NCBI GenBank assembly: GCA_027486525.1
Contig: JAIXOY010000112.1
Location: forward strand, 1 to 17,563
Direction: 5' to 3'
Length of the DNA: 17,563 bases
Source: Pseudomonadota bacterium
GTDB taxonomy: Bacteria > Bdellovibrionota > Bacteriovoracia > Bacteriovoracales > Bacteriovoracaceae
Below the pieces are notes generated by a model, which was given only the letters and a program-made list of their open reading frames with translations, searched no databases and was not told where the DNA came from. This document shows positions 6,623 through 17,563 of the stretch, piece by piece. How positions within the stretch are numbered: the stretch's first letter is position 1; each line of letters starts with the position of its first letter. The position numbers were made by a program, and so were the translations under genes.

Positions 6623-7234
6623 TTAAACTGTCTCAAGAAGTTGCAAGCCGCGAACGTATTTCGAGAAGCGACCCAAACGCCAAGGAAGGCAGCGGATGAA
6701 CTCGTCACCGAGCTTGGCCGCTTCGAGCTTATATTTTATCTCCAACACGGCGACGTAGTCGAAGTCCTGCCGCCAAAGATTTCTTCCGGCCGGGGAAAAT
6801 TCTATTCGTGTATCGAGTGTTACTCGTAAACCCCAAGCAGGTGCGTGGTAGTACCGGCGTTCATACCGATTTTCCAGCACGGGATACATGAGACATTCAC
6901 CCAATAAAACACCGTGGCCTTCGCGCAAAGAAGCAATCGCTGCAGCAGGATCGTAGAAGCGCTTGTCCCCATGATCCCCTAACTTTCGTTTCTCCTCGAG
7001 TTGCTTCCAGGCTCCCCCATCGTAGGAGCGCAGACGCCACTTCACGCGCGCCTCGTGGCCCGCGGTGTGGGCATGAAAACAGGCGAGATCCGGCGAATCA
7101 AAATACGCGTTATGCACTCGACGTGCTGGATACGCCGTCACAAGGCCCATGGGATGAGCGAGGAGAATGTTCTCAATCTGCTGGAGATCGCCAGATCCGA
7201 GAGGAATCTTCTTTTCGAAACGCCAGTCACTCAT
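6623..7234 (-). CDS. VTC domain protein (polyphosphate-polymerase-type CYTH-like domain, PF09359-like), cytoplasmic
   Basis: 203 aa from ATG 7232-7234; I reject the longer 7303 start. Motifs match what I recall of bacterial VTC-domain proteins: RFEKKIPL (R.E.K), YFDSPD, ARVKWRLRSY, LEEKRK, GLRVTLDTRIEF, LEIKYK, and C-terminal RFSKYVRGL. The start overlaps the stop of the upstream gene (ATGA at 7231-7234). Confidence 0.8.
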   Translation of the reverse strand: MSDWRFEKKIPLGSGDLQQIENILLAHPMGLVTAYPARRVHNAYFDSPDLACFHAHTAGHEARVKWRLRSYDGGAWKQLEEKRKLGDHGDKRFYDPAAAIASLREGHGVLLGECLMYPVLENRYERRYYHAPAWGLRVTLDTRIEFSPAGRNLWRQDFDYVAVLEIKYKLEAAKLGDEFIRCLPWRLGRFSKYVRGLQLLETV

Positions 7235-7887
7235 AGCGACCACCCTTCTGGCCAGTGGCCCCAGATGCGCCACTCGTTTGTCTTGGGATTCCAAACCGCC
7301 CACGCCGTCTCGTCGAGAGGGGGCAGTTCTTTTTCATGCATCTGCGCAAGTGCTACGAGCAGAGGCAACCGCCGCGACTGCCGAGACACCTCGATGCCAG
7401 CTGCACCTTTCCGTGCGAGCGGCCCTTCTCCATTTTGCAGAGTCAGAGTGAAGGGATGAGCAAACAGTGCGTAGTCTCCGACACTCTTCCCATTCACGAT
7501 CAGCGCACCCTGCGCGAGCGGTGCTGGCGAAGGGGTACGCAGCAGGACAGCGGCCTCTAGGCTTTGCGTATCAACGAGGATCATTTCTCGCTGTTCAAAG
7601 CCCTGGTCCTCATCAACCTCTATCGCAACCGCTTTAAGCCCGGGCTGGCCCTGCGTCGGAAGTGTGCGCATTAAGACCCGCAGGCGGTTCCCTGCAAACT
7701 CGAGTTCACCCTTCACCTCTTGACTGCGCCACTGAGAGTTTGTCCGAAGCTTGATATCGTCAAAGAGCAAACGCTGAAGCGAACGATGCCCTAGAGAAAG
7801 CGCGAATGAGGGAGCCGACTTTCCTATCAAGAAAATTCCCAACCCCATCAGCACAACACAAAAGACCGCAGCGAAGAAAAAGCGCAT
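7231..7887 (-). CDS. hypothetical membrane-anchored protein (N-terminal TM/signal anchor, extracytoplasmic domain), unknown function
   Basis: 218 aa, ATG 7885-7887. MRFFFAAVFCVVLMGLGIFLIG is the hydrophobic anchor. No motif I recognise. The start overlaps the DUF4956 stop (TGATG) and the stop overlaps the VTC start (ATGA). Confidence 0.6.
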   Translation of the reverse strand: MRFFFAAVFCVVLMGLGIFLIGKSAPSFALSLGHRSLQRLLFDDIKLRTNSQWRSQEVKGELEFAGNRLRVLMRTLPTQGQPGLKAVAIEVDEDQGFEQREMILVDTQSLEAAVLLRTPSPAPLAQGALIVNGKSVGDYALFAHPFTLTLQNGEGPLARKGAAGIEVSRQSRRLPLLVALAQMHEKELPPLDETAWAVWNPKTNEWRIWGHWPEGWSL

Positions 7888-8555
7888 CAGGCCAAGTCTT
7901 GATATTCGGTGATGAGCATTTGAACTCCCGGCAACTTCTCTTTGAGTCCTTGGCGCATCTTCTCGAGATTTTCTGTCGAGGAGGTTTCTACCAAGAAGAC
8001 AGCTTCCCCCTCGGAGATGCGTTTGATTTTTACCCGCCGGGAATGGGTCGCAAGAACGGCCTCAAGTTCCGGCACGGAGAACTGAGCGAGCTTACTCAGA
8101 TGAACGTAGAGAGCTCCGGGACGACTTGCCCCGCCGCCACGCACTTTGAGGAGCGCATACACAAGAAGAATCACCACAAGACCGATGACGGTCACGGGCC
8201 GCTGATCGGCGCCCAGACCAAGGCCCACGGCGATGGAGAGAAACAGGAATGAAAGTTCTTCGGGGTCTTTGATCGCCGTTCGGAAACGGACGACGGAGAG
8301 CGCACCGACGAGACCCAGGGAAAGGGCGAGGGAGGACTTCACCACACTAATGACGAGCATGGTGGTCATGGTCAGAAGAAAAAAGTTTCCGGCGAAGAGT
8401 GTGCGATGAGACTGGCCTCGGCCCCAGCGGGAATAGAGCAGCGCCATCAGCCCGGCCAGCACGCCAGCGGTTCCCAAGTTGAGGACAAACTGCCCGACAT
8501 CGATCTGCGGGGCCTGGTTGGCGAGAAAATCTTCAAACGTGTTAACAGCACTCAT
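7887..8555 (-). CDS. DUF4956 domain-containing integral membrane protein
   Basis: 222 aa, ATG 8553-8555 with a GAGGAG Shine-Dalgarno 6 nt upstream. Contains the DUF4956 hallmark LSLGLVGALSVVRFRTAIKDPEELSFLFLSIAVGLGLG and several TM segments. Confidence 0.8.
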   Translation of the reverse strand: MSAVNTFEDFLANQAPQIDVGQFVLNLGTAGVLAGLMALLYSRWGRGQSHRTLFAGNFFLLTMTTMLVISVVKSSLALSLGLVGALSVVRFRTAIKDPEELSFLFLSIAVGLGLGADQRPVTVIGLVVILLVYALLKVRGGGASRPGALYVHLSKLAQFSVPELEAVLATHSRRVKIKRISEGEAVFLVETSSTENLEKMRQGLKEKLPGVQMLITEYQDLA

Positions 8556-8561
8556 GGATCA

Positions 8562-8567
8562 CTCCTC
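8562..8567 (-). promoter_or_regulatory. Shine-Dalgarno GAGGAG for the DUF4956 gene
   Basis: Plus-strand ctcctc, 6 nt upstream of ATG 8553-8555 on the minus strand. The only junction in the cluster with a spacer (24 nt) also has the strongest SD. Confidence 0.55.
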
Positions 8568-8579
8568 GTGATTGATAAA

Positions 8580-9470
8580 TCATGGCAAACGTAACCACTC
8601 CGCGGCGATCCAAAACAGACGCGCCCCTAAGAGAGTAAAAATAACGGATTTGAACTGGGGTGTGGCATTCGTGAAAGGGGCCTTCGACCACCGCACGCAC
8701 TGAATGAGGCCCCAGAAAAACAGGAAAGAGAAGATCACATAGAGGATCGCGGGCCCGTTGGAAAAGCGATCGAGTTGGTTTTCGTTCCACAGAATAGTCG
8801 CCACTCCTACGTAACCCCAAAAGAGCATGAGCGCGCCCACTCGGAGGGCATGAGTGGCACCCAGGAGACTCGAAAAATTTCGCGCCGTCGCATAAGTGTC
8901 ATGGGGCTTCAGCTGAAAGATCTGCGTGGCGGCATAGCTCCCGCCGACGGTGAGCGTAAACAGCCAGCCCATCATCCAAGTGCGCGCACTGGGCTCGAAG
9001 CCTGAGATGGTAGCCCCGAGGATGACTCCGATCACCCCACAGCCAGTCGCATCTAAGAAAAGATCGACGCCGCCAACTTCTTTACCGCGCCACTTGAGTC
9101 CGGGGACGCGGCCTGAATACGCATACGAGAAAAGCAAGGCGACAACCGCGCAGCCGAGGGGATAGGTGCCATAGAACGCCGCCGCCACACATCCCAGCAG
9201 CATGCAAGCAACACCGAAGTGGCCCAGCCACTTCGGACGCGGCGGGGGATTGTCTAAGAAGTTCAAGGGACCGGCATCGCGGTCGACGTGCGTATTGAGC
9301 GCGCAGGTGCCACCGAAGAGAAGAACGCTATAGATCAAGAAGAGCGCCAGCAGATCCGTCGGCCAGGCCGCTTTATTCGGATTGAGCGCATAGCCCGTTA
9401 ACACAAACACAAAGCTCGGGAGAAATGTCTTTGGACGCATGTGAATGAAATAAAATTTCAAATCTTTCAT
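8580..9470 (-). CDS. polytopic membrane protein, divergent UbiA-prenyltransferase-like
   Basis: 296 aa, ATG 9468-9470 overlapping the upstream stop (ATGA). 8-9 predicted TM segments. N-terminal HMRPKTFLPSFVFVLTGY (UbiA-like RP..T start), NTHVDRDAG in the first loop (degenerate NDxxDxxxD), and a later HDTYATARNFSSLLG (degenerate second motif). Family assignment is tentative; the catalytic Asp motifs look eroded. Confidence 0.5.
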   Translation of the reverse strand: MKDLKFYFIHMRPKTFLPSFVFVLTGYALNPNKAAWPTDLLALFLIYSVLLFGGTCALNTHVDRDAGPLNFLDNPPPRPKWLGHFGVACMLLGCVAAAFYGTYPLGCAVVALLFSYAYSGRVPGLKWRGKEVGGVDLFLDATGCGVIGVILGATISGFEPSARTWMMGWLFTLTVGGSYAATQIFQLKPHDTYATARNFSSLLGATHALRVGALMLFWGYVGVATILWNENQLDRFSNGPAILYVIFSFLFFWGLIQCVRWSKAPFTNATPQFKSVIFTLLGARLFWIAAEWLRLP

Positions 9471-10354
9471 CGTTTATCCTTCAAGAAATACTGGCGAGCA
9501 CGAAAGAATTTTGATTCCTGGCCAACCTTCATACCACGCTCACTCACCAACAACGACTCGAGTTTATTCAGAAGCAACGTTCCCATCTCGCGCGGGCGGT
9601 ACTTGTTTTCGATTTCCAGCTCTTTGATGAGGAATTCTTCTTTGCCACCACTGGCTTGAATGAAACGGGCCTCATCCCACGAACCTTCCATCAGCCAAAC
9701 CCATGATGGATTTTTACGAAATACGGCAGGCACCATCAGTTCGTTCTTCTCTGAGTCTCTCAGGAGCAAGAGCGGAGAAACGCGTTCGTTACGATCAATC
9801 AGAATGTGGTAGCGCTGACGATGAGAATAGCCAAGAACGACAGGCCCTAGGCCTTTGGTTTTTAACTGACGACGACGCAATTCTTGGAACGGAGCGAGGC
9901 TCGAACTTTCTTTGCGTGTGAGCCACTGGGAAAGAAGGGCACCATCGGCGGCACTCACTCCTCTCTGAGCGACGTACCTCTCAATGATGTCGACGATGCG
10001 CACACCTGCCACACTCTGCTCTTTGAGGTTGCGTTCCTCTTCTTCGATCCGTGCAGCTCCCGGTGCTTCCATCTCCGATTTAAGCTGGATGACATAGGCC
10101 GGTGGCTGGTTCCCTTTGCGCACTCTTCGGATGCGTAATCCGAGTCCGGCCTGAGTCAGAACACCTTCAGGAGAATCGAAGTAGAGGTCTTCGGCGAGGT
10201 AAACATCGTGAGGCCAAAAACGAAAATCCCCCAAGAGAAAAGTTTCCTGAGGCAGAGGCTGATCCGCGGGGACCACATACTTACGTTGCTCTTCTACCCG
10301 ATTGGTAGCCGCCAGCACATTGAAACTCAGGAGGAGAAGAAGGATTCTTACCAT
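9467..10354 (-). CDS. secreted VTC/CYTH-like domain protein (signal peptide + divergent polyphosphate-polymerase-type tunnel domain)
   Basis: 295 aa from ATG 10352-10354; I reject the longer 10387 start, which would overlap the upstream gene by 40 nt. Signal peptide MVRILLLLLSFNVLAA/TN. Then RVEEQRKYVV, LYFDSPEG, GLGLRIRRV and YVIQLKSE parallel the RFEKK / YFDSPD / WRLRSY / LEEKRK of the VTC protein at 6623-7234. C-terminal SKFFRARQYF parallels RFSKYVRG. Confidence 0.6.
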   Translation of the reverse strand: MVRILLLLLSFNVLAATNRVEEQRKYVVPADQPLPQETFLLGDFRFWPHDVYLAEDLYFDSPEGVLTQAGLGLRIRRVRKGNQPPAYVIQLKSEMEAPGAARIEEEERNLKEQSVAGVRIVDIIERYVAQRGVSAADGALLSQWLTRKESSSLAPFQELRRRQLKTKGLGPVVLGYSHRQRYHILIDRNERVSPLLLLRDSEKNELMVPAVFRKNPSWVWLMEGSWDEARFIQASGGKEEFLIKELEIENKYRPREMGTLLLNKLESLLVSERGMKVGQESKFFRARQYFLKDKR

Positions 10355-11856
10355 CCGTACCCCCGGAACCGGCCACGCGTGTGCCACAGTCCTGCGGGAT
10401 AGAGTGTGAGATCCGGCTCGCGCACGAGCTCTCCGTTCTTCACGACGTCACCGATGTTGAGTTGGCGATTAATCTGCCACGTGTGAGGGTCTGAAACCTG
10501 AAAGGCTCTGAGAATTTGTCGACGACGCTCGGCGAGTTTGTGGAAATACAGTTCGCGCACTTCTGCGGGCCATCCGGAGTGCGAGAGAATTTCTCGCAGA
10601 TCATCCGGACCTAAACGAGCAATCTGCTTGGCCATCCACGCAAGATCGCTCCACGTCGCCTGGCGCCAGGCTTCCGGGAGATGGTTCATGCGAGCGAGGA
10701 AACGAAGCTCTTTTCCATCGTCCTCTACCAGATCCCAACCCAACTCATTCACCAGGCCACCCTTGAGGTCGCGCGGGAACTTCTCAATGCGAACTCCCAG
10801 CGAAACACCCAAGTCACTATAACTGGCCTTCATACCTTCAGCTGTGAGAGTGAGCAACGTGTTGTCGGTCTTCGTGTCCCAGTTGCCGATCCACATCTCC
10901 GCAAGGAGAGCTCCGCGCACAGAACGCCTCGATTTATTTTGTGCGAGGTCCGGCATGAAAGGCCCGAGGCGCGTCTCGGAACTCGGCCTTGGCTCCAACG
11001 CGAGTCCTGTGAAGGTGAGATAGGTCTCTCCCTCCCTTCCACGCAGCAAGGGCTCAATGGCAATCATCTCATCCGTCACGGTGCTGACCTGCTGGATGAA
11101 GGGACTCAGATTTATTTTGTAGCTGTTGTAGATAAAATTCACGAGCTGCTGAACGGTGCGCTTCTGCTTAGCTTGGCGACCCAACAGCAAACGGAGCTCG
11201 CCGGTTCCGCGATGAAAAGGAAAATCCACGTTAAAACCGAGAGAGGCAAAGATCCTCGAGGCCACGGGGTCACTATGAATCTCATCACCCCACTTGATCA
11301 GCCACCGTTCGCCATTACGAAGATCATCGGCGTGAACCTTCGCGACACTGCCCTTGCCTTCTAACTTATCAAGTCGCAGCCAAGAAAAGTCCGGATCCAC
11401 GCCAGCTGCTTTCCACTGGCGCTCAAAGGCCTCAGACAACGGAGCAACTGGGCTTTTCCAAAACGCATCGCTCTCGGCAGGCCGGCCATCATCAGGTGCG
11501 CGATTGAACTTTAAAAGATACGGAGAAAGATCGTGGGTCAACCCCATCTTGAGAATGTCGAGCAGGCCCACGCCGGCTTCCACACGATGGCGATCAATGA
11601 AGGAGTGGTAGATCAGATCGAGATTGTCCCACGCCACGGGATTGGGAAAATTGCCAGCATCGAAGGCCCGTTCTTGTTGCTCGCAGGTATCGCGAACAAA
11701 CGAGAGCATCACTGGTTTGCGCTCTTGCGTGAGCTTGCGACCTTCGGCTTCCTTCACATCCGTGTTCGTGAGCACTTCACAACGTGACCGCGATTCTTCC
11801 AGCGTGAGCGCTTGGGCGCTCAAGCTGAGAAAGAATAATGGCCACAGTCGCTTCAT
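10348..11856 (-). CDS. secreted protein with protein-kinase-like (PKL/Hanks-like) catalytic core; not CotH-like
   Basis: 502 aa, ATG 11854-11856. Signal peptide MKRLWPLFFLSLSAQA. Gly-rich loop LEGKGSVAKV (aa ~165-175), Lys in WLIKW (K188), catalytic loop WIGNWDTKTDNTLL (D327-x-K329-x-x-N332, the HRDLKPEN spacing), and DLG at 348-350. The kinase core maps to about nt 10800-11370. Confidence 0.65.
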   Translation of the reverse strand: MKRLWPLFFLSLSAQALTLEESRSRCEVLTNTDVKEAEGRKLTQERKPVMLSFVRDTCEQQERAFDAGNFPNPVAWDNLDLIYHSFIDRHRVEAGVGLLDILKMGLTHDLSPYLLKFNRAPDDGRPAESDAFWKSPVAPLSEAFERQWKAAGVDPDFSWLRLDKLEGKGSVAKVHADDLRNGERWLIKWGDEIHSDPVASRIFASLGFNVDFPFHRGTGELRLLLGRQAKQKRTVQQLVNFIYNSYKINLSPFIQQVSTVTDEMIAIEPLLRGREGETYLTFTGLALEPRPSSETRLGPFMPDLAQNKSRRSVRGALLAEMWIGNWDTKTDNTLLTLTAEGMKASYSDLGVSLGVRIEKFPRDLKGGLVNELGWDLVEDDGKELRFLARMNHLPEAWRQATWSDLAWMAKQIARLGPDDLREILSHSGWPAEVRELYFHKLAERRRQILRAFQVSDPHTWQINRQLNIGDVVKNGELVREPDLTLYPAGLWHTRGRFRGYGW

Positions 11857-12365
11857 TACGCACGGGCCCCACGGTAGTCCATGATCTCGCGGTTACCGAT
11901 GTAGCTGTACCCGATGAAGATCAGCACGAAGGCCGCATGGATGGGCCACCCGAGTTCTGCGAAACCATCGTACTGACGAAAGAAGCCCCAGGCGAAGGTC
12001 ACCGCCGTACCACCGTGGATGCAAATCCACATGATCATGTGAATGATGGTTTCTCTTTCCGTGCACCGTGGAAGGTGCCAGTGGATCTCGTCCATGAATT
12101 CGTGGAGGGTCCGTGTGACCCAGCAGCCCAAGAAGAGAAACAATGCTTGTCCAGGCCACCAGGTCATCAGCAAGAGTGAGAGCATCAGTCCGTAGCTGGT
12201 GTAAAGAATCATCCGGTGAGTGCGCAGCTCTCCGTCCGTGATGTCCTTTTTCCAAATCGCTAGATGCGTTTTGTGATCGAGGTACCAGAAGATGCCGAAG
12301 AAGAATCCGAAGAAGAGCATCCCGTAAGCGAAATGCTGTGGAGGAATTGCATCAAGCCATGACAT
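11856..12365 (-). CDS. hypothetical polytopic membrane protein with conserved His clusters
   Basis: 169 aa, ATG 12363-12365 overlapping the upstream UbiA gene by 14 nt. Stop TAA overlaps the next start (TAATG). ~5 TM segments with His motifs LDHKTH, LHEFMDEIHWH and IIHMIMWICIHGG. No family I can name. Confidence 0.55.
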   Translation of the reverse strand: MSWLDAIPPQHFAYGMLFFGFFFGIFWYLDHKTHLAIWKKDITDGELRTHRMILYTSYGLMLSLLLMTWWPGQALFLFLGCWVTRTLHEFMDEIHWHLPRCTERETIIHMIMWICIHGGTAVTFAWGFFRQYDGFAELGWPIHAAFVLIFIGYSYIGNREIMDYRGARA

Positions 12366-13161
12366 AAAACACCATCCTCGAGATAAAGATTAGCCCGCAC
12401 GTTGCGAGATTCATGTATTGAGTTGCGTAGTGGCCCGGCTCGCCCCAGCGAAGCCATTCGAGGTTCGCGGCACGCCAGACGAGAACCGCGATCCACGCGG
12501 TTCCCCACGGCACGGGGCAAAGAAGCAAAAGCAGACCGCTCAGGAGATTCAGCGTGTGAAGAAGAGCGTAGGTCGTGCGCTCACCGAACACGAGCGGCAG
12601 CGTGCGAGTCCCGCTCAACCGATCCTCTTCGAGATCATCCAAATCCCGCAGGACACTTCCGGCCATCACCTGCAGCGCCACGAAGCCTGCGACGATGTTG
12701 ATGTAGGGAGATGAGGTGTCGCCGGCACCCAAGTAGACGAGCATCGCCCAGCCCACACCGATCCAGGCACTCTTAATTCCCGTCAGAGATTTAAGACGAA
12801 AAGTTCCCGTCGCCGTGGCGAAGGGATAGGAGTAGGACAAACCTAAAAAGAGAATCGTCAGCGAACACACAAGCGTCAGCGGGCCCGGACGCAACAGGGA
12901 GAGAACGAGGCCCGAAATGAGAAGGGGGAGGAGCTTGAGTCCGGCGCGTGACTTCAGGGCATCCCACGGATGTTGCTCATCGGTGAGTGAGTCCATGCCA
13001 TAGACAAAACCCACCAGAGAAAAAGTGATCCACACCACCGACCAACTGGCGGCGAGCTCAACGCTCACGAGACTAAATCCCGTCAGCACGATGGCCACGG
13101 CCGCGGCCACGAGGATCCAGATGGACTTACGTCTCCAGAGGAGAAAATGTGATGCGAGCAT
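12352..13161 (-). CDS. UbiA superfamily prenyltransferase (MenA-like aromatic prenyltransferase fold)
   Basis: 269 aa, first gene of the minus-strand cluster. The strong second Asp-rich motif RDLDDLEEDRLSGTRTLPLVFG matches the MenA/UbiA NDxxDxxxD...G.KTL.V..G signature. 8-9 TM segments. Confidence 0.75.
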   Translation of the reverse strand: MLASHFLLWRRKSIWILVAAAVAIVLTGFSLVSVELAASWSVVWITFSLVGFVYGMDSLTDEQHPWDALKSRAGLKLLPLLISGLVLSLLRPGPLTLVCSLTILFLGLSYSYPFATATGTFRLKSLTGIKSAWIGVGWAMLVYLGAGDTSSPYINIVAGFVALQVMAGSVLRDLDDLEEDRLSGTRTLPLVFGERTTYALLHTLNLLSGLLLLLCPVPWGTAWIAVLVWRAANLEWLRWGEPGHYATQYMNLATCGLIFISRMVFYVMA

Positions 13162-13306: not shown

Positions 13307-14698
13307 ATGTTTTTGAAGCACTTCACTCTTGCGGCCCTCGTGGCGATCGTCTCGGGCCAGGCTTTTGCCTTGAACGAAGGTCTGCGCTACCACCTCAAAT
13401 CGCTGGAGCACGGCAAGGCCGCGGCCTATCGCTTTGATGGGACCTTACGCCTCACCGAAGACGGCTTCTTCCAGCAAAAACTCAGTCACGATGATCCCGG
13501 CTCGGCTTCCTTCGGTCAGCGCTACTTCATCGACTCAAAGTACGCCACTGCGGGCGAAACAGCTCCCGTGTTCTACATCATCTGCGGCGAGTGGAACTGC
13601 GACGGCACCGGCTCTTACTCTTCTGTTGAACGTCTCGCGAAAGAAGTCGGCGCGCACTTGGTGGCGCTCGAGCACCGCTACTACGGCGAAAGTTTGCCGT
13701 TCCGGAAGTTGACCACCGAACGTCTCTCGCACTTGAATCTTGATGCCGCGATCACGGACCTGGCCGTGTTCCAAAAACACGCCATGGAGACCATGAATCT
13801 CAAAGGCAAGTGGGTCGCTTTCGGTGGATCGTACGCAGGAACTCTTGCGGCGTTCTACCGTCTCAAGCATCCGGAACTCGTGACCGGCGCCCTCGCCTCT
13901 TCAGCACCTGTCTTGGTGAAAGCTGAGTTCAACGAATACGACGCACACGTGGCATCGGTGATCAACAAGAACACCTGCGGCGACATGGTTCGCGAAGCGG
14001 TCGCGGGCATCGAAGCTCGCATGGCGACCCGCGAAGGTACCCTCGCGGTGAAGGCACTCTTCAACTCAAGCGATGTGGTGAACGACGATGATTTCTTGTA
14101 CGTCGTTGCCGACATGCTCGCGGCCGCCGTCCAATACGGAAGACATACCAAGTTCTGCAACGATCTCGCTGCAAATCCAGATCGCGTCGCAGGTTACGCT
14201 CGCGCCGGCATCAACGTCTTAAGCTCCATGGGGACAACGCCGATTGAAATTTCCATGCAGGCCGCGGAAGCGAAAGACATCACACCGGCGAGCTACTTCC
14301 GTCAGTGGATGTGGCAGAGCTGTCTTGAGTTCGGTTGGTTTCAAGTCGCCAACGGCACAGGTGTCGATACGTCACGCTCAAGCCGCATCGATCTTCCGTA
14401 CCACGACCGCGTCTGTGAACGGCTCTACGGCCAAGGCACAACCGCTGATGGTTCCTTGAATGCCACTTGGTATGCTCCGCTCTTTAGCCCAAGCACGACC
14501 AACATCATCTTCACCAACGGCTCGAACGATCCGTGGTTGCGTCTCTCCGTGATCCCGGGAGTGCAGGCACCGAATCTTGATCTCTTGATGATCGATGGAG
14601 CTGCTCACTGTAATGACTTGAACGCTCTTTCTGCACTTCCGACAGTGCAAGCGGCGCAGGTTCGTTTCGGCGAAATTATTAAGGGCTGGTTGCTGTAG
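13307..14698 (+). CDS. secreted peptidase S28 family serine carboxypeptidase (Pro-X carboxypeptidase / DPP-II-like)
   Basis: 463 aa. Signal peptide MFLKHFTLAALVAIVSGQAFA. Catalytic Ser motif GGSYAGTLAAFYRLKHPEL (the GGSY.G.L.A..R.KYP of S28). Mid-region and C-terminal His region are consistent with S28. Stop TAG 14696-14698. Confidence 0.85.
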   Translation: MFLKHFTLAALVAIVSGQAFALNEGLRYHLKSLEHGKAAAYRFDGTLRLTEDGFFQQKLSHDDPGSASFGQRYFIDSKYATAGETAPVFYIICGEWNCDGTGSYSSVERLAKEVGAHLVALEHRYYGESLPFRKLTTERLSHLNLDAAITDLAVFQKHAMETMNLKGKWVAFGGSYAGTLAAFYRLKHPELVTGALASSAPVLVKAEFNEYDAHVASVINKNTCGDMVREAVAGIEARMATREGTLAVKALFNSSDVVNDDDFLYVVADMLAAAVQYGRHTKFCNDLAANPDRVAGYARAGINVLSSMGTTPIEISMQAAEAKDITPASYFRQWMWQSCLEFGWFQVANGTGVDTSRSSRIDLPYHDRVCERLYGQGTTADGSLNATWYAPLFSPSTTNIIFTNGSNDPWLRLSVIPGVQAPNLDLLMIDGAAHCNDLNALSALPTVQAAQVRFGEIIKGWLL

Positions 14699-16232
14699 GA
14701 AGAGTTCCGAGCCAGCTCTCCGGCTGGTCGCAATAAGCCGGACGTTGCGCACACGCATTGTCGCCGAGATCGCTGATCGAGTAGTTCACGCTGAAGCGCG
14801 CACACTCATTGTATTTTTTTACGGCATCCGGCGTGCTCTCGATCTGGCAGGGCCCGTTGATGATCCGCGCGAAGTGCGCCGGATGCAGCATGCTTCGTCC
14901 CATGGGTTTGTTACGGTAGTGCACCGTCGTGCCTTCGACGCGAAACTGCCCCTTCGGCACGCGGAAATCCACGGGCGTCATTCGCTGTGTGTGGAACGGG
15001 CACGCGTAGACCTTCCGTTGCGGCGAACTGATCGCCACAGCTTCCGGGCGCAGGATGTCGAGGTAATGCCGGCACGCGAGGTCCCCTTCCGGACACGAAC
15101 AGCTGAGCGTCCTGCGGCTCACACTTGTCGTCGTGCCGTTCGGCTCAAGCACCGGTTTCAAAAAGGACTGAACCTCGATTTTGTCGACAGTGTTCACGAG
15201 CAGCGTGTTGAACGGTGCATCGACAGACGTTGGTAACGGCACGAACCCGTTGTCCTTCTCGACGCAGTAGATGTCCTTGAGAGTCAGCGGCTGCGGAGGC
15301 CCCGCGACGACGAGTGGAGGCGCCCCCGCGATCGCCGGGATGACCGGTACCGTGGGAATCACCACGGGCGAGACCTCCGGATAACGCAGCGGCAGTCCCA
15401 CGCTCAACGTCGAGATGTTGCCGATCTGGAAGTACTTCTTGCGCATGAGCATCTCGCGCACAACCGGGTTCGGGCTCCGGAGGTGTGCCGTGAAGTCCGA
15501 TTCCACGGGGATCTCGCAGCGGCCGACCTCGCCGACGGAGTCGTCGAAGGCGATATGCATGCCATCGCCCATCATCGAATCGCCGGGGCCCATCGCCCGG
15601 CACTCGCTGGCGTTCACGTCTTCGCCGTTGTCTTTGTACTCGTCACACAGACCCGCGAAGTGCAGCAGCTCGTGGACGATGGTGGCGCAGTTGAAGTCCG
15701 AAGAATACTTCTGCGCATCCCCCCGTTCTCCCGGCTTGACGATCGTGATCTCGATCTCCGGTGGCTTCACGGAACCCATGGCCTGCGCCTGAGTAGGTGA
15801 CACAGCAATGAGGTTCAGCTGCTCTCCCCCGGGTCCTCGCAGGCCAGGCCTCGCAGCGTCGAGGCAACTGCGCACTCGATCCAGCATCGCTGCCGGTGTC
15901 ACCGTCGCGTCGGGGTTAGCGGTGAACTTGAGGTTGAACACCATCTCGTACTGCTTTTCACCGAGGTACTTCAGAGTGCCCTTGTGATCGGTCGGTAACT
16001 TGTAGTTGTCCGATCGGATGTTGCTATGGCTCACGTTTTCTTGCCGATGGGCCGACCGCACCATGCTCCCGCGGGTCACGTCGAAGACGCGAGCGTCGCC
16101 CGGCTTCGTGAGCGGATTACAGCGGTTGATCTCGTCGATGTCGGCGATCCAGTCGGTGGGGCTGATGGAATAGTTCGTCGAGCACAGCGGCTGCGCGTGG
16201 GCGAGCCCGAGGAAGAAGAGGAGAAATGTCAT
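14679..16232 (-). CDS. secreted Cys-rich zinc metalloprotease, snapalysin (M7)-like HExxHxxGxxD active site (paralog 1)
   Basis: 517 aa from ATG 16230-16232, which overlaps the upstream paralog stop (ATGA); I reject the 16388 start. Signal peptide MTFLLFFLGLAHA/QP. FNCATIVHELLHFAGLCDEY (nt ~15637-15678) is followed by a DSMMGDG Met-turn. I count 19 Cys. The C-terminal domain is shared with paralog 2 (LHPAHF). The 3' end overlaps the S28 gene by 20 nt (convergent). Confidence 0.7.
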   Translation of the reverse strand: MTFLLFFLGLAHAQPLCSTNYSISPTDWIADIDEINRCNPLTKPGDARVFDVTRGSMVRSAHRQENVSHSNIRSDNYKLPTDHKGTLKYLGEKQYEMVFNLKFTANPDATVTPAAMLDRVRSCLDAARPGLRGPGGEQLNLIAVSPTQAQAMGSVKPPEIEITIVKPGERGDAQKYSSDFNCATIVHELLHFAGLCDEYKDNGEDVNASECRAMGPGDSMMGDGMHIAFDDSVGEVGRCEIPVESDFTAHLRSPNPVVREMLMRKKYFQIGNISTLSVGLPLRYPEVSPVVIPTVPVIPAIAGAPPLVVAGPPQPLTLKDIYCVEKDNGFVPLPTSVDAPFNTLLVNTVDKIEVQSFLKPVLEPNGTTTSVSRRTLSCSCPEGDLACRHYLDILRPEAVAISSPQRKVYACPFHTQRMTPVDFRVPKGQFRVEGTTVHYRNKPMGRSMLHPAHFARIINGPCQIESTPDAVKKYNECARFSVNYSISDLGDNACAQRPAYCDQPESWLGTLPTATSP

Positions 16233-17563
16233 GGCCGCACCGCCGGTGCGCCGCCGAGGAACTTCACTGGATCGCGGCACTCCGCTGGCACGTTCGAGCA
16301 GTCGACGGCCGTGTCGGCGGGCTGCGAGTGGCGGTAGGCGAACTGCGCGCAGCGGTCGTAGAGCGTGGTGCGATCGATCGCACGGCACGAACCGCGCAAC
16401 ACGCGCATGAAGTGCGCGGGATGGAGCAAGCTACGGTTGAGGCGCGGGGGATTGCGGAACTCGACGAAGCCGGCGCTCACGCGCTCGTCCCGCACGGTTC
16501 CCTGGTTCATGCCCACGTCGCTGGCGCCGGCGTCCTGCGAACTCGTGGGACAGCGGAAGCGGCGGTTGCTCGCTTGGTAGCCTTCGTTCATCTTCGCGCG
16601 CACGCCGGTGATACTCGCCTGGCACTGCGAGTTGCCCGGGGGGCACTTGCAGATCAAGCGGTACTGCGACGGCAGTGTTTGGTAGCGTGTGACGTTGCGG
16701 CCAGCGAAGTCCATCTCGAAGCCGCGAGGTATATCCACGAAGCGCGCTCCGTAGGTCTGCAGCAAAGGCCTCTGGGCCGTCGCCGCAAACGTCGTGACCG
16801 TGCACCAATTTTTCTCAAACGCGGACTTGTCCGGCAGCGTCTTGTAGATGTCGTTGGCGTCCGGCGACATCTCCGCGGCGAGGTGGCCCGCCGGAGCGTT
16901 CAGCCACTTCGAGCCGGGGTTCAGGACGCAGCGCTTGGCGAGGCCGACGGCGTCGTCGTAGGTGCCCTGCATGTCCACGCTCATGATCGAATCTTCGTGC
17001 ACGATCACGCGACAGGCCGCCGCGTTCTGGATCTCCGTGGGATTGCCCTCGGGGTACTCGTCGCAGAGGCCAGCGTGGTGGAGGAATTCGTGGATGACCG
17101 TGGCGCACGAGAAATCCATCGAGAAATTGTTCGCGTTCCCGCGGCCACTCGTCTTGACGTTGATCGCAATGAGCGGGGGCTTCGGCGACTCACCGCTGTC
17201 ACCCCGGAGCGTGAGCCGCATCTGGTGGCCGTCGGGGCCGGTCATGGCGGGCGATGCTTGCGCAAAGCACTGCTCGACCCGTGTGCGCATTTCGGCGACC
17301 TGCGCCTCGGTGGTGTCGACGGCAGTGAACTTTGCGTTGAATTCGACGTTCCAGGATTTATCACCTGTGCGCCGAAGGACGAACTGACTGTTGTTGGGGA
17401 TCTTGTTCTCCGTGTGGCCAAGCTGGTCGTGGAGCACGGCCTCGCCGACGTCGGGGATCGCGCACGCCGAGATGTCGCTAAGACTTTGTAGACTCGAACT
17501 GATGCCCGAGTTGAGCAGGCCCTGCAACGGGAGTTCTGCGTCGAGACACGTCTCGCAGTCCGC
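16229..17563 (-). CDS. secreted Cys-rich snapalysin-like zinc metalloprotease (paralog 2), 5' end beyond window
   Basis: The frame stays open to nt 17563. The codon at 17525-17527 that the ORF track prints as M is TTG, not a credible start. FSCATVIHEFLHHAGLCDEY (nt ~17055-17096). Aligns with paralog 1 throughout (NVEFNAKFTA vs MVFNLKFTA; SLLHPAHFMRV vs SMLHPAHFARI). Very high GC3. Confidence 0.7.
   Translation of the reverse strand, partial: ADCETCLDAELPLQGLLNSGISSSLQSLSDISACAIPDVGEAVLHDQLGHTENKIPNNSQFVLRRTGDKSWNVEFNAKFTAVDTTEAQVAEMRTRVEQCFAQASPAMTGPDGHQMRLTLRGDSGESPKPPLIAINVKTSGRGNANNFSMDFSCATVIHEFLHHAGLCDEYPEGNPTEIQNAAACRVIVHEDSIMSVDMQGTYDDAVGLAKRCVLNPGSKWLNAPAGHLAAEMSPDANDIYKTLPDKSAFEKNWCTVTTFAATAQRPLLQTYGARFVDIPRGFEMDFAGRNVTRYQTLPSQYRLICKCPPGNSQCQASITGVRAKMNEGYQASNRRFRCPTSSQDAGASDVGMNQGTVRDERVSAGFVEFRNPPRLNRSLLHPAHFMRVLRGSCRAIDRTTLYDRCAQFAYRHSQPADTAVDCSNVPAECRDPVKFLGGAPAVRP

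What the first reader, a model, noticed from the sequence alone, without database searches (positions are those of the whole stretch)
8580..13161. Two UbiA-superfamily membrane proteins (one MenA-like with intact Asp motif, one with eroded motifs) plus a His-rich membrane protein inside the VTC operon
The 12352..13161 product has a textbook second Asp-rich prenyltransferase motif (RDLDDLEEDRLSGTRTLPLVFG). The 8580..9470 product has UbiA-like topology and an N-terminal RP motif, but both of its Asp motifs are degenerate (NTHVDRD; HDTYATARNFSSLLG).

The intervening 169-aa protein has three His clusters (LDHKTH, HEFMDEIHWH, IHMIMWICIH) suggestive of a metal site. An active-plus-degenerate prenyltransferase pair could be a catalytic subunit and a scaffold. 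Their presence implies a prenylated small-molecule or lipid-carrier step in whatever this operon builds.
Basis: partly seen in the sequence, partly recalled or inferred. Interest (0 to 1): 0.55.

Follow-up and report, generated by a model that had tools for sequence, protein, structure and literature searches.

The report
Two UbiA enzymes plus new metal-site protein
The two prenyltransferase-like genes and the small His-rich membrane gene are real. With each other they form a conserved, undescribed module in predatory and gliding bacteria that probably makes a modified isoprenoid lipid, and its link to the polyphosphate (VTC) genes holds only in one phylum.

Summary
I call the genes A (12352..13161), H (11856..12365) and B (8580..9470), all on the minus strand. 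They lie in a translationally coupled eight-gene operon, A-H-S-C-B-D-X-V, that ends in DUF4956 and VTC genes.

- **A** is a UbiA-superfamily protein. It keeps (D/N)xxxD, the catalytic Tyr-Ser and an invariant RDxxDxxxD. It resembles archaeal DGGGPS-type enzymes, not MenA.
- **B** has a UbiA fold. Its active site is a fixed variant rather than an eroded one: R12, N59, D63, Y118, S119 and K130 are kept, and the second Asp motif is replaced by an invariant QxxQ. B is more conserved than A.
- **H** founds an orphan family of only 26 clusters among 1.84 billion representatives, with no Pfam or solved-structure relative. It has five helices and four (D/E)xxxH motifs, one on each of helices 1-4, all on the predicted cytoplasmic side. 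That suggests a two-metal site.

A-H-B also stands alone in Myxococcota without VTC. H relatives elsewhere pair with a halogenase-like flavoprotein, with S-C, and with lipid exporters.

My best reading is a membrane module that builds and tailors a prenylated lipid. The substrate and the chemistry of H remain unknown.

The parts
12352..13161 (-). Gene A: 269-aa UbiA-superfamily prenyltransferase with a canonical second Asp-rich motif
   Evidence: PF01040 at 47.8 bits, above the 34.2 cut-off. Best NCBIfam hit is the archaeal prenyltransferase PRK13591, E 5.5e-11. Best PDB hit is DGGGPS 6m31. Invariant in 19 orthologues: Y54, D61, Y110, K130, R172, D173, D176, D180.
12979..12993 (-). A first motif, D57-S-L-T-D61; (D/N)xxxD across the family
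   Evidence: Position 57 is D or N and D61 is invariant in 19 of 19 sequences. hhalign pairs these with B N59 and D63. Coordinates checked.
12622..12648 (-). A second motif, R172-D-L-D-D-L-E-E-D180
   Evidence: R172, D173, D176 and D180 are invariant. The stretch aligns to KDFEDMEGD of DGGGPS and NDFKSVEGD of chlorophyll synthase.
11856..12365 (-). Gene H: 169-aa five-helix membrane protein, founder of an orphan family with four (D/E)xxxH motifs
12264..12278 (-). H motif 1, D30-H-K-T-H34, at the end of helix 1
   Evidence: D30 in 66 of 67 and H34 in 65 of 67 sequences. Coordinates checked.
12216..12230 (-). H motif 2, E46-L-R-T-H50, at the start of helix 2
   Evidence: E46 in 65 of 67 and H50 in 65 of 67 sequences.
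12063..12104 (-). H motif 3 region, H88-E-F-M-D92-E93-I-H-W-H97-L-P-R100-C101, at the end of helix 3
   Evidence: D92 66/67, E93 65/67, H97 66/67, R100 66/67, C101 63/67. H95 is variable.
12039..12053 (-). H motif 4, E105-T-I-I-H109, at the start of helix 4
   Evidence: E105 in 66 of 67 and H109 in 66 of 67 sequences.
8580..9470 (-). Gene B: 296-aa divergent UbiA-fold protein with a fixed variant active site
   Evidence: PF01040 at 27.6 bits, below the cut-off, but 21 of 22 family members hit it. AlphaFold model pLDDT 88.7 with nine long helices. Foldseek top hits are 6m31, 4tq3, 8djk, 8j8j and 4od5. Only 34 homologues among 5.8 billion proteins.
9267..9296 (-). B first motif, N59-T-H-V-D63-R-D65-A-G-P68
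   Evidence: N59, D63 and D65 are invariant in 18 of 18; G67 and P68 in 17 of 18. N59 and D63 align to the N and the middle D of NDIFDIEID in DGGGPS.
9063..9119 (-). B loop Y118-S119...R128-x-K130...D136, the counterpart of AfUbiA Y139, S140, K146 and D152
   Evidence: Alignment to 4tq3. Y118, R128, K130 and D136 are invariant. The roles of the AfUbiA residues are taken from PMC4106721.
8877..8924 (-). B replacement of the second Asp motif: Q183-I-F-Q186-L-K-P-H-D191...N198
   Evidence: Q183 and Q186 are invariant in 18 of 18. D191 is lost in the Myxococcota orthologues. Q186 aligns to AfUbiA D198 and D191 to D202.
10348..11856 (-). Gene S: 502-aa secreted orphan protein with kinase-like motifs, lying between H and B
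   Evidence: N-terminal signal-like sequence (my reading of the sequence; no signal-peptide tool was run). No Pfam or PDB sequence hit. Conserved KWGDE, NWDxKxxNTL and SDLGxSLG. Co-occurs with C and H in Bdellovibrionota, L005, L024 and L040.
9467..10387 (-). Gene C: 306-aa CYTH/VTC-like (triphosphate-tunnel) protein with an N-terminal signal or anchor
   Evidence: CYTH at 22.8 bits and VTC at 15.9 bits, both just under their cut-offs. Invariant E32-x-Q34-R-K36 in place of ExExK, plus many invariant Arg, Lys and Glu residues.
7887..8555 (-). Gene D: DUF4956 membrane protein
   Evidence: PF16316 at 55.3 bits. Preceded by GAGGAG.
7231..7887 (-). Gene X: 218-aa orphan with an N-terminal membrane anchor
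   Evidence: Only a weak T2SSI hit. Conserved in position in Bacteriovoracia loci at 32-65% identity.
6623..7303 (-). Gene V: VTC-domain protein; the likely true start is the ATG at 7234
   Evidence: PF09359 at 67.2 bits. Orthologue alignments begin near residue 24, and the ATGA overlap with the X stop codon is at 7231-7234. R28, E30 and K32 are invariant.

Best explanation
A, H and B are the core of a conserved, undescribed inner-membrane module that assembles and tailors a prenylated lipid on the cytoplasmic face of the membrane.

- **A** is a conventional Mg2+-dependent UbiA-type prenyltransferase. It ionises a prenyl diphosphate and transfers the chain to an acceptor.
- **B** is a second UbiA-fold enzyme. 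It still has the diphosphate/Mg2+ site of motif 1 and the catalytic Tyr-Ser, but Gln-x-x-Gln replaces the second Asp motif. It probably does a second, chemically different step on the same lipid, such as a second prenyl transfer, a cyclisation, or handling of a monophosphate. It is probably not an inert scaffold.
- **H** is a new five-helix protein. Its four (D/E)xxxH motifs are inferred to build a two-metal centre facing the cytoplasm next to the UbiA active sites. It would carry out a metal-dependent tailoring step, with oxidative hydroxylation or desaturation the most likely and phosphoester hydrolysis the main alternative.

In Bdellovibrionota the module has been merged with other genes: secreted S and C, often an MMPL exporter and a halogenase-like flavoprotein, and the DUF4956-X-VTC genes. 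This suggests the lipid ends up in the envelope.

**Shown here:** family and fold membership, motif conservation, and gene linkage. **Inferred:** catalysis, metal binding, the side of the membrane, and the product.
For: **A.** PF01040 scores above its cut-off. (D/N)57-x3-D61, Y110 and R172-D-x-x-D-x3-D180 are invariant.

**B.**
- UbiA fold by Foldseek, TM 0.71-0.75 to 6m31.
- R12, N59, D63, Y118, K130, D136, Q183 and Q186 are invariant from Bdellovibrionota to Myxococcota; S119 is kept in 17 of 18.
- These align to DGGGPS and AfUbiA residues.
- In AfUbiA, R22A, N68A, D72A and K146A abolish GPP binding, whereas D198A and D202A only weaken it 45- and 21-fold (PMC4106721).
- B is as conserved as A or more so. 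Against L001 it is 52% against 36%, against L021 46% against 35%, and against L002 36% against 31%.

**H.**
- It is the most conserved protein of the operon, 67% identical against L001.
- Four (D/E)xxxH motifs occur in 63 of 67 members, including distant ones.
- The motifs sit at the same ends of helices 1-4 in a model with pLDDT 92.
- The loops carrying the motifs, plus the C-terminus, hold 11 Lys/Arg against 1 on the other side (my count from the sequence).

**Linkage.**
- The order A-H-(S-C)-B is kept in every Bdellovibrionota locus long enough to show it.
- In Myxococcota, A-H-B sit together; 4-nt overlaps were checked in L003. Nothing else is shared between those loci.
- MMPL genes of HAE3/HpnN type, or ABC-2 exporters, lie next to the module or to H relatives.
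Against: - No substrate, product or metal has been observed. Everything about chemistry is inferred from motifs.
- H relatives occur with the flavoprotein, S-C and exporters but without any UbiA gene nearby (L026/27, L040). H is therefore not strictly dependent on prenyltransferases.
- In EcMenA, mutating the equivalents of D198 and D202 causes near-total loss of function. B may therefore be unable to do classical prenyl transfer.
- The mapping of Q186 onto the first Asp of motif 2 differs by about one helical turn between the AfUbiA alignment and hhalign.
- The module is known only from metagenome-assembled genomes.
- H has no structural or sequence relative that would anchor a di-iron assignment.
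Confidence: 0.4

Rival explanations
1. A is the only catalytic prenyltransferase. B is a catalytically dead paralogue that acts as a scaffold or regulatory subunit of a heteromeric UbiA complex.
For: - B lacks the second Asp-rich motif: Q186 replaces the first Asp, and D191 is not conserved in Myxococcota.
- Mutating those Asp residues in EcMenA abolishes activity.
- A and B are always encoded together in Bdellovibrionota and Myxococcota.
- From my own knowledge, soluble prenyl-chain synthases have heteromers with one motif-less subunit.
Against: - B keeps the residues needed for GPP/Mg2+ binding and the catalytic Tyr-Ser; most are invariant, and S119 is kept in 17 of 18.
- B is more conserved than A in most comparisons.
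- A and H occur without B within 12 kb in L024.
- To my knowledge no heteromeric UbiA enzyme has been described.
Confidence: 0.15
2. A pathway for a prenylated aromatic, quinone-like lipid. A prenylates an aromatic head group. The flavoprotein found in sister loci hydroxylates or halogenates the ring. H acts as a Coq7/AOX-like membrane di-iron hydroxylase or oxidase on the prenylated ring. B adds or cyclises a second prenyl unit.
For: - The flavoprotein linked to A or H in Bdellovibrionia, L006, L026/27 and L040 has the WxWxIP and KxGES signatures. It also hits halogenase CmlS (1e-24) and Ubi-hydroxylase models.
- H has paired carboxylate/His motifs on four helices at the membrane surface.
- From my own knowledge, the combination of a UbiA enzyme, a flavin hydroxylase and a di-iron hydroxylase mirrors ubiquinone biosynthesis.
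Against: - The flavoprotein gene is absent from this window and from all Myxococcota trios.
- A and B resemble DGGGPS-type enzymes more than the aromatic prenyltransferases UbiA and MenA.
- H shows no sequence or fold match to Coq7, AOX or ferritin-like proteins.
- No gene for making an aromatic head group lies in the loci.
Confidence: 0.2
3. A pathway for a phosphorylated lipid carrier. A and/or B make a polyprenyl-phosphate-linked or glycerol-ether-phosphate lipid. H is a two-metal phosphohydrolase or nucleotidyl-transfer-type enzyme acting on its phosphate head, analogous to the small membrane enzymes that follow UbiA enzymes in the mycobacterial DPA or archaeal archaeol pathways. In Bdellovibrionota the lipid serves the phosphate and polyphosphate machinery (C, S, D, V).
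For: - In Bdellovibrionota the operon partners deal with phosphate: two triphosphate-tunnel proteins (C and V), DUF4956 and a kinase-like secreted protein.
- Both A and B are closest to DGGGPS.
- The phosphoribosyltransferase 8j8j is among the structural matches of B.
- H is a ~170-aa five-helix protein with a charged cytoplasmic cluster. From my own knowledge, this resembles CarS or Rv3807c in size and gene position.
Against: - The trio exists without any phosphate-related partner in Myxococcota.
- H has no Pfam hit at all, so neither PAP2 nor the CarS family was detected.
- His-rich (D/E)xxxH sites are not typical of those families.
Confidence: 0.2
4. Tetrapyrrole modification, analogous to heme O and heme A synthesis. 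A UbiA-type enzyme prenylates a tetrapyrrole, and H, like CtaA, binds heme through His residues and oxidises it.
For: B has weak N-terminal hits to heme O synthase (15.6 bits) and chlorophyll synthase (17.1 bits). A-family profiles weakly hit chlorophyll a synthase structures. H is His-rich.
Against: - The scores are far below the cut-offs of 210-313 bits.
- No CtaA/Cox15 Pfam hit was found for H.
- The conserved His residues of H all lie at one membrane surface, paired with carboxylates. That pattern fits non-heme metal rather than bis-His heme.
Confidence: 0.05

Closest known systems
UbiA-superfamily intramembrane prenyltransferases with solved structures (MjDGGGPS 6M31, AfUbiA 4TQ3, ApUbiA 4OD5, UBIAD1 8DJK, Rv3806c 8J8J)
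   Same: - Nine-helix fold for B.
- Pfam PF01040 for A and for the B family.
- Both keep the N-terminal Arg, the N/D-x3-D of motif 1, the catalytic Tyr-Ser and the loop Lys.
- A also keeps the DxxDxxxD of motif 2.
   Different: - B has an invariant QxxQ where motif 2 should be, and NxxxDxD-GP instead of NDxxDxxxD.
- A lacks the third Asp of motif 1.
- Both score far below every NCBIfam equivalog cut-off, for example 42 against 238 bits. They therefore belong to no named subfamily.
- They occur as a fixed pair with H.
Heteromeric prenyl-chain synthases with a motif-less partner subunit (for example plant GPPS large/small subunits, or NgBR/DHDDS). This comparison is recalled from my own knowledge, not tested here.
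   Same: An enzyme with intact Asp motifs is encoded together with a paralogue that lacks one of them.
   Different: - Those enzymes are soluble or peripheral trans- and cis-prenyltransferases, not UbiA-fold proteins.
- B retains the substrate-binding residues and is under stronger constraint than A in most comparisons.
- A occurs without B in L024.
Membrane-surface di-iron carboxylate enzymes of prenyl-quinone metabolism (Coq7, AOX/PTOX) and hemerythrin-like HxxxE sites. This comparison is recalled from my own knowledge.
   Same: A helical bundle in which each helix supplies a carboxylate and/or a His at i and i+3 or i+4. The site is at the membrane surface, and the genes sit with UbiA-type and flavin enzymes.
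   Different: - H has four (D/E)xxxH motifs rather than E...ExxH...E...ExxH.
- H is fully membrane-embedded with five helices.
- No sequence or fold similarity was detected.
- Metal content is unknown.
Bacterial VTC-domain plus DUF4956 gene pairs (Pfam PF09359 and PF16316)
   Same: V and D are clear members and sit next to each other at the 3' end of the operon.
   Different: Here they are fused into one operon with two UbiA genes, H, S, C and X. This fusion is seen only in Bdellovibrionota. I found no paper describing such an arrangement.
The ebo operon prenyltransferase EboC (bioRxiv 10.64898/2026.05.21.724671)
   Same: A UbiA-like prenyltransferase inside a conserved multi-gene operon spread over several phyla.
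   Different: None of the other ebo gene types (TatD-like, sugar-phosphate cyclase, xylose-isomerase-like, alkaline phosphatase) is present here.

Membership tests
UbiA superfamily (PF01040): gene A | Pfam score above the gathering cut-off | tested here: met
   47.8 bits against 34.2. The orthologue in L024 scores 61.3 bits over profile positions 6-238.
UbiA superfamily: gene A | Mg2+-ligand positions of motif 1 (AfUbiA N68 and D72) | tested here: met
   (D/N)57 and the invariant D61. The third Asp of NDxxDxxxD is absent, but in AfUbiA that residue does not touch Mg2+.
UbiA superfamily: gene A | Second Asp-rich motif (DxxxD) | tested here: met
   R172-D173-x-x-D176-x-x-x-D180 is invariant in 19 of 19. 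It aligns to the motif of DGGGPS and chlorophyll synthase.
UbiA superfamily: gene A | Near-universal catalytic Tyr (AfUbiA Y139) | tested here: met
   Y110 is invariant; S111 follows it in the window sequence.
UbiA superfamily: gene A | Prenyltransferase activity | not testable with these tools
   Needs a biochemical assay.
UbiA superfamily: gene B | Pfam score above the gathering cut-off | tested here: inconclusive
   The window protein scores 27.6 bits against 34.2. However, 21 of 22 family members hit PF01040, best E 1.8e-15.
UbiA superfamily: gene B | Nine-helix UbiA fold | tested here: met
   The AlphaFold model has pLDDT 88.7. The Foldseek matches at E <= 0.01 are all UbiA-superfamily structures, at TM 0.6-0.75.
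UbiA superfamily: gene B | Motif 1 ligands, the diphosphate-binding Arg and Lys, and the catalytic Tyr-Ser | tested here: met
   R12, N59, D63, Y118 and K130 are invariant and S119 is kept in 17 of 18. N59 and D63 align to the DGGGPS motif and Y118, S119 and K130 to AfUbiA.
UbiA superfamily: gene B | Second Asp-rich motif (AfUbiA D198 and D202) | tested here: not met
   Q186 is invariant at the D198 position. D191, at the D202 position, is lost in the Myxococcota orthologues.
MenA (1,4-dihydroxy-2-naphthoate polyprenyltransferase): gene A | Score above the NCBIfam equivalog cut-off | tested here: not met
   16.5 bits against 264 and 13.7 bits against 277.
DGGGP synthase: genes A and B | Score above the NCBIfam equivalog cut-off | tested here: not met
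   A scores 29.2 bits against 296; B has no hit above E 0.01. This is the closest solved structure, but not family membership.
Fatty-acid desaturase/hydroxylase-type membrane di-iron enzymes: gene H | Pfam match and the His boxes HxxxH / HxxHH | tested here: not met
   Only 1 of 30 members gives a chance-level hit (E 0.13) to FA_desaturase. I saw no HxxHH box among the conserved motifs (my reading of alignment A3).
Any described protein family or solved fold: gene H | A significant profile or structure match | tested here: not met
Two-metal-site protein: gene H | Bound metal ions | not testable with these tools
   Only the conserved ligand-like pattern is shown.
VTC/DUF4956 operon: genes V and D | Pfam PF09359 and PF16316 above their cut-offs, with the genes adjacent | tested here: met
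   67.2 and 55.3 bits. They are in the same strand run, separated only by X.

The most novel reading that the evidence does not exclude
H founds a new class of fully membrane-embedded two-metal enzymes. Together with a canonical and a Gln-substituted UbiA enzyme, it makes a previously unknown prenylated lipid. In predatory Bdellovibrionota this lipid is exported and coupled to a VTC-type polyphosphate machine in the cell envelope, for example as a lipid anchor or carrier for polyphosphate or a phosphorylated envelope polymer.
Probability: 0.12. Interest if true: 0.8.

Novelty: new variant of a known kind. Interest (0 to 1): 0.55.

Why it matters
- **An unknown lipid pathway.** The locus points to an unknown isoprenoid lipid pathway in Bdellovibrionota and Myxococcota, two groups known for predation and unusual envelopes.
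- **A natural UbiA variant.** B is a stable, naturally occurring UbiA variant in which the second Asp-rich motif is replaced by Gln-x-x-Gln. It could show what that second metal site really does.
- **A new membrane protein family.** H has a very clear candidate metal site and no known relative.
- **A route into bacterial VTC genes.** The locus also offers a way into bacterial VTC-domain operons; my literature searches found no paper describing them.

The main limits are that the chemistry is inferred and that the module is known only from uncultured genomes.

Tried and rejected
**Searches that gave nothing**
- An exact look-up of the window's B protein found nothing on record.
- The afdb50 fold library was unavailable.
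- Scanning all 30 H-family members against Pfam at E <= 10 gave no recurrent family.
- A profile of S against the PDB, and Pfam scans of four S orthologues, gave nothing. The kinase-like reading of S therefore rests on motifs only.
- The promoter and terminator scan found nothing beyond chance. The operon call rests on gene overlaps and synteny.
- Literature searches for DUF4956, VTC plus CotH, UbiA plus VTC, and bacterial VTC domains found nothing on this arrangement.

**Ideas rejected**
- **MenA-like:** scores are far below the cut-off.
- **ebo operon:** the partner genes are absent.
- **Heme O/A-like pair:** scores are negligible and no CtaA signature is present.
- **Desaturase-type His boxes in H:** not present.
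- **Extra shared genes around the Myxococcota trios:** an all-against-all comparison found only antisense shadow ORFs.
- **Synteny of the window's other genes:** they are shared only with close relatives and are not part of the module.

Full report
**What is in the window.** The minus strand from 13161 to 6623 carries eight ORFs in a row:

| Gene | Coordinates | Length |
|---|---|---|
| A | 12352..13161 | 269 aa |
| H | 11856..12365 | 169 aa |
| S | 10348..11856 | 502 aa |
| C | 9467..10387 | 306 aa |
| B | 8580..9470 | 296 aa |
| D | 7887..8555 | 222 aa |
| X | 7231..7887 | 218 aa |
| V | 6623..7303 | 226 aa; likely true start at 7234 |

The junctions show translational coupling. H starts 14 nt before the stop codon of A. 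The junctions H/S and D/X are TAATG and TGATG, and C/B and X/V are ATGA. D follows B after 24 nt and a GAGGAG site. A consensus scan for promoters and terminators found nothing beyond chance, so the operon call rests on these overlaps and on synteny.

**Family assignments.**
- A scores 47.8 bits on Pfam UbiA (cut-off 34.2). B scores 27.6 bits over its full length, which is below the cut-off. D is DUF4956 at 55 bits and V is a VTC domain at 67 bits. C is a borderline CYTH/VTC match. H, S and X have no significant family hit; X gives only a weak T2SSI match.
- In NCBIfam, A's best matches are the archaeal prenyltransferase PRK13591 (E 5.5e-11) and DGGGP synthases. MenA models give only 13.7-16.5 bits against cut-offs of 264-277, so 'MenA-like' is not supported.
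- For both A and B, the only solved structure found by single-sequence search is M. jannaschii DGGGP synthase, 6m31.
- For B, 21 of 22 family members hit PF01040, best E 1.8e-15.
- The AlphaFold model of B (pLDDT 88.7, nine long helices) matches 6m31, AfUbiA 4tq3, UBIAD1, the Rv3806c phosphoribosyltransferase and ApUbiA at TM 0.6-0.75.
- B therefore has a UbiA fold, even though the window protein alone misses the Pfam cut-off.

**The motifs are variant but fixed, not eroded.** All three families are rare. B has 34 homologues and A has 12 in a 5.8-billion-protein collection.

Across orthologues from Bdellovibrionota and Myxococcota:
- A keeps Y54, (D/N)57, D61, Y110, K130 and R172-D173-x-x-D176-x-x-x-D180.
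- B keeps R12, N59, D63, D65, Y118, R128, K130, D136, Q183 and Q186.
- B's D191 is lost in Myxococcota.

Alignments to DGGGPS and AfUbiA map B onto AfUbiA as follows: N59 to N68, D63 to D72, Y118/S119 to Y139/S140, K130 to K146, Q186 to D198 and D191 to D202. The AfUbiA paper reports four relevant points (PMC4106721):
- N68, D72, D198 and D202 hold the two Mg2+ ions.
- R22A, N68A, D72A and K146A abolish GPP binding.
- D198A and D202A only weaken binding, 45- and 21-fold.
- The equivalent changes in EcMenA abolish function.

B thus retains the primary diphosphate/Mg2+ site and the catalytic Tyr-Ser, but has stably replaced the second Asp motif with QxxQ. Profile-profile comparison of A and B is weak (probability 56%, E 1e-4), but it pairs their first motifs.

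B is more conserved than A in most genome comparisons: 52% against 36% versus L001, 46% against 35% versus L021, and 36% against 31% versus L002. In L013 A is slightly ahead, 73% against 70%. On balance this is the opposite of what relaxed selection on a dead subunit would give.

**The His-rich protein H.**
- H has 30 close homologues.
- A profile search of 1.84 billion representatives finds only 26 clusters and no link to a larger family.
- The AlphaFold model (pLDDT 92.3) has five long helices.
It is four (D/E)xxxH motifs: D30-H34, E46-H50, E93-H97 and E105-H109. D92, R100 and C101 are also conserved.
- All four motifs are present in 63 of 67 family members, including the most distant ones. 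I judged the four exceptions to be partial sequences or partial matches.
- H95 is variable. H117 is usually but not always His, by eye in alignment A3; I did not tally it.
- The motifs sit at the end of helices 1 and 3 and the start of helices 2 and 4, so all lie at one membrane surface.
- The loops carrying them, plus the C-terminus, hold 11 Lys/Arg against 1 on the other side (my count from the sequence). By the positive-inside rule this places the cluster in the cytoplasm, the same side as UbiA active sites.
- A two-metal site is my inference. It has not been shown.

**Gene context elsewhere.**

| Lineage and loci | Arrangement |
|---|---|
| Bdellovibrionota (Bacteriovoracia and Bdellovibrionia MAGs) | [flavoprotein]-A-H-S-C-B-[MMPL]-D-X-V-[flavoprotein]. 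The MMPL gene is missing in this window, L009, L013 and L028. |
| Myxococcota (Polyangiaceae L020, Sandaracinaceae L022, high-GC L003/L004 and L007) | Only A-H-B, with 4-nt overlaps and no VTC, D, S or C. Nothing else is shared between these loci. |
| L005 | A-H-B-S |
| L024 (Bacteroidota-like, with T9SS-type genes) | S-C transcribed divergently from A-H, with no B within 12 kb |
| L026/L027 | Flavoprotein (41% identical to the Bdellovibrio one)-H, next to a divergent MMPL operon, with no UbiA gene |
| L040 | Flavoprotein-H-198 aa-S-C-ABC ATPase-ABC-2 permease, with no UbiA gene |

A-H-B is therefore a conserved core in two phyla, and H is the hub of a wider set of partners. The association with VTC is confined to Bdellovibrionota. 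All genome hits are metagenome-assembled genomes. The window is closest to a Halobacteriovoraceae MAG (L008) and to a 428-kb metagenome contig (L028), at roughly 78-95% protein identity.

**Interpretation.**
- *What is shown:* two UbiA-fold proteins with different, fixed active sites; an orphan five-helix protein with a four-fold carboxylate/His signature; and strong genetic linkage between them and with lipid-type exporters.
- *Best-supported explanation:* a membrane module that builds and tailors a prenylated lipid at the cytoplasmic face. A is the classical prenyltransferase. B is a second, mechanistically altered UbiA enzyme. H is a metal-dependent tailoring enzyme.
- *What I cannot decide:* whether H is oxidative or hydrolytic, or what the acceptor is. 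The halogenase-like flavoprotein in sister loci (WxWxIP and KxGES signatures) hints at an aromatic head group. The closeness of A and B to DGGGPS, and the phosphate-related partners, hint at a glycerol- or phosphate-linked lipid.
- *Literature:* I found no paper describing this arrangement.

**Verdict.** The locus is a new variant built on a known enzyme superfamily, and it contains a new protein family. Interest is moderate to good at 0.55. It is limited by the lack of any experimental handle and by the inferred nature of the chemistry.

Noticed in passing
window 10348..11856 (-): S is a 502-aa orphan with an N-terminal signal-like sequence (my reading; no signal-peptide tool run) and invariant KWGDE, NWDxKxxNTL and SDLGxSLG stretches. 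These resemble the Lys, catalytic-loop and DFG-like elements of protein-kinase-like folds. It travels with C and H in three different lineages. It has no Pfam or PDB sequence match, so the kinase reading is untested.
   Followed up: partly
window 9467..10387 (-): C is a CYTH/VTC-like tunnel protein with an N-terminal signal or anchor, so it is probably outside the cytoplasm. It has an invariant ExQxK where triphosphate-tunnel enzymes have ExExK. Together with V, the operon therefore encodes two tunnel-family proteins. The likely true start is M12.
   Followed up: partly
L001 4705..6216; L026 8532..9998; L006 8549..10075: A ~500-aa flavoprotein flanks the module in Bdellovibrionia, and sits directly upstream of H relatives in loci that have no UbiA gene. 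In the two orthologues I translated (L001, L026) it carries the flavin-dependent halogenase signatures WxWxIP (GYWVWTIPL) and KxGES, plus a hydrophobic C-terminus. It is absent from this window.
   Followed up: partly
window 8556..8579 (gap between B and D): Most related loci carry a ~750-aa MMPL (HAE3/HpnN-like) transporter gene between B and D. This window, L009, L013 and L028 lack it, leaving only a 24-nt gap with a ribosome-binding site.
   Followed up: yes
window 7231..7887 (-): X is an orphan with an N-terminal membrane anchor and only a weak T2SS protein I hit. It is kept between D and V in Bacteroriovoracia-type loci (Bacteriovoracia) at 32-65% identity. Bdellovibrionia loci have an unrelated ~235-aa ORF in that position.
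   Followed up: partly
window 14679..16388 (-) and 16229..17527 (-): Two tandem paralogous orphans (N-terminal leaders suggest secretion; not tested). The 569-aa one contains HELLH, a zinc-protease-like motif. They lie in a stretch where GC rises to 0.62-0.65. The overlapping plus-strand ORF 16226..17491 appears to be a shadow: orthologues are 70% identical on the minus frame against 42% on the plus frame.
   Followed up: partly
L025 10001..10477: A more distant H relative (31% identity) sits alone, next to an aminotransferase, inside a cell-division/cell-wall (dcw) gene cluster with PASTA-domain PBP and Mur ligases. The H fold is therefore not restricted to the prenyltransferase context.
   Followed up: no
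window 6623..7303 (-): The GTG start listed for V overlaps X by 73 nt. Orthologue alignments and an ATGA junction point to the ATG at 7234 as the real start, which would give a 203-aa product.
   Followed up: yes
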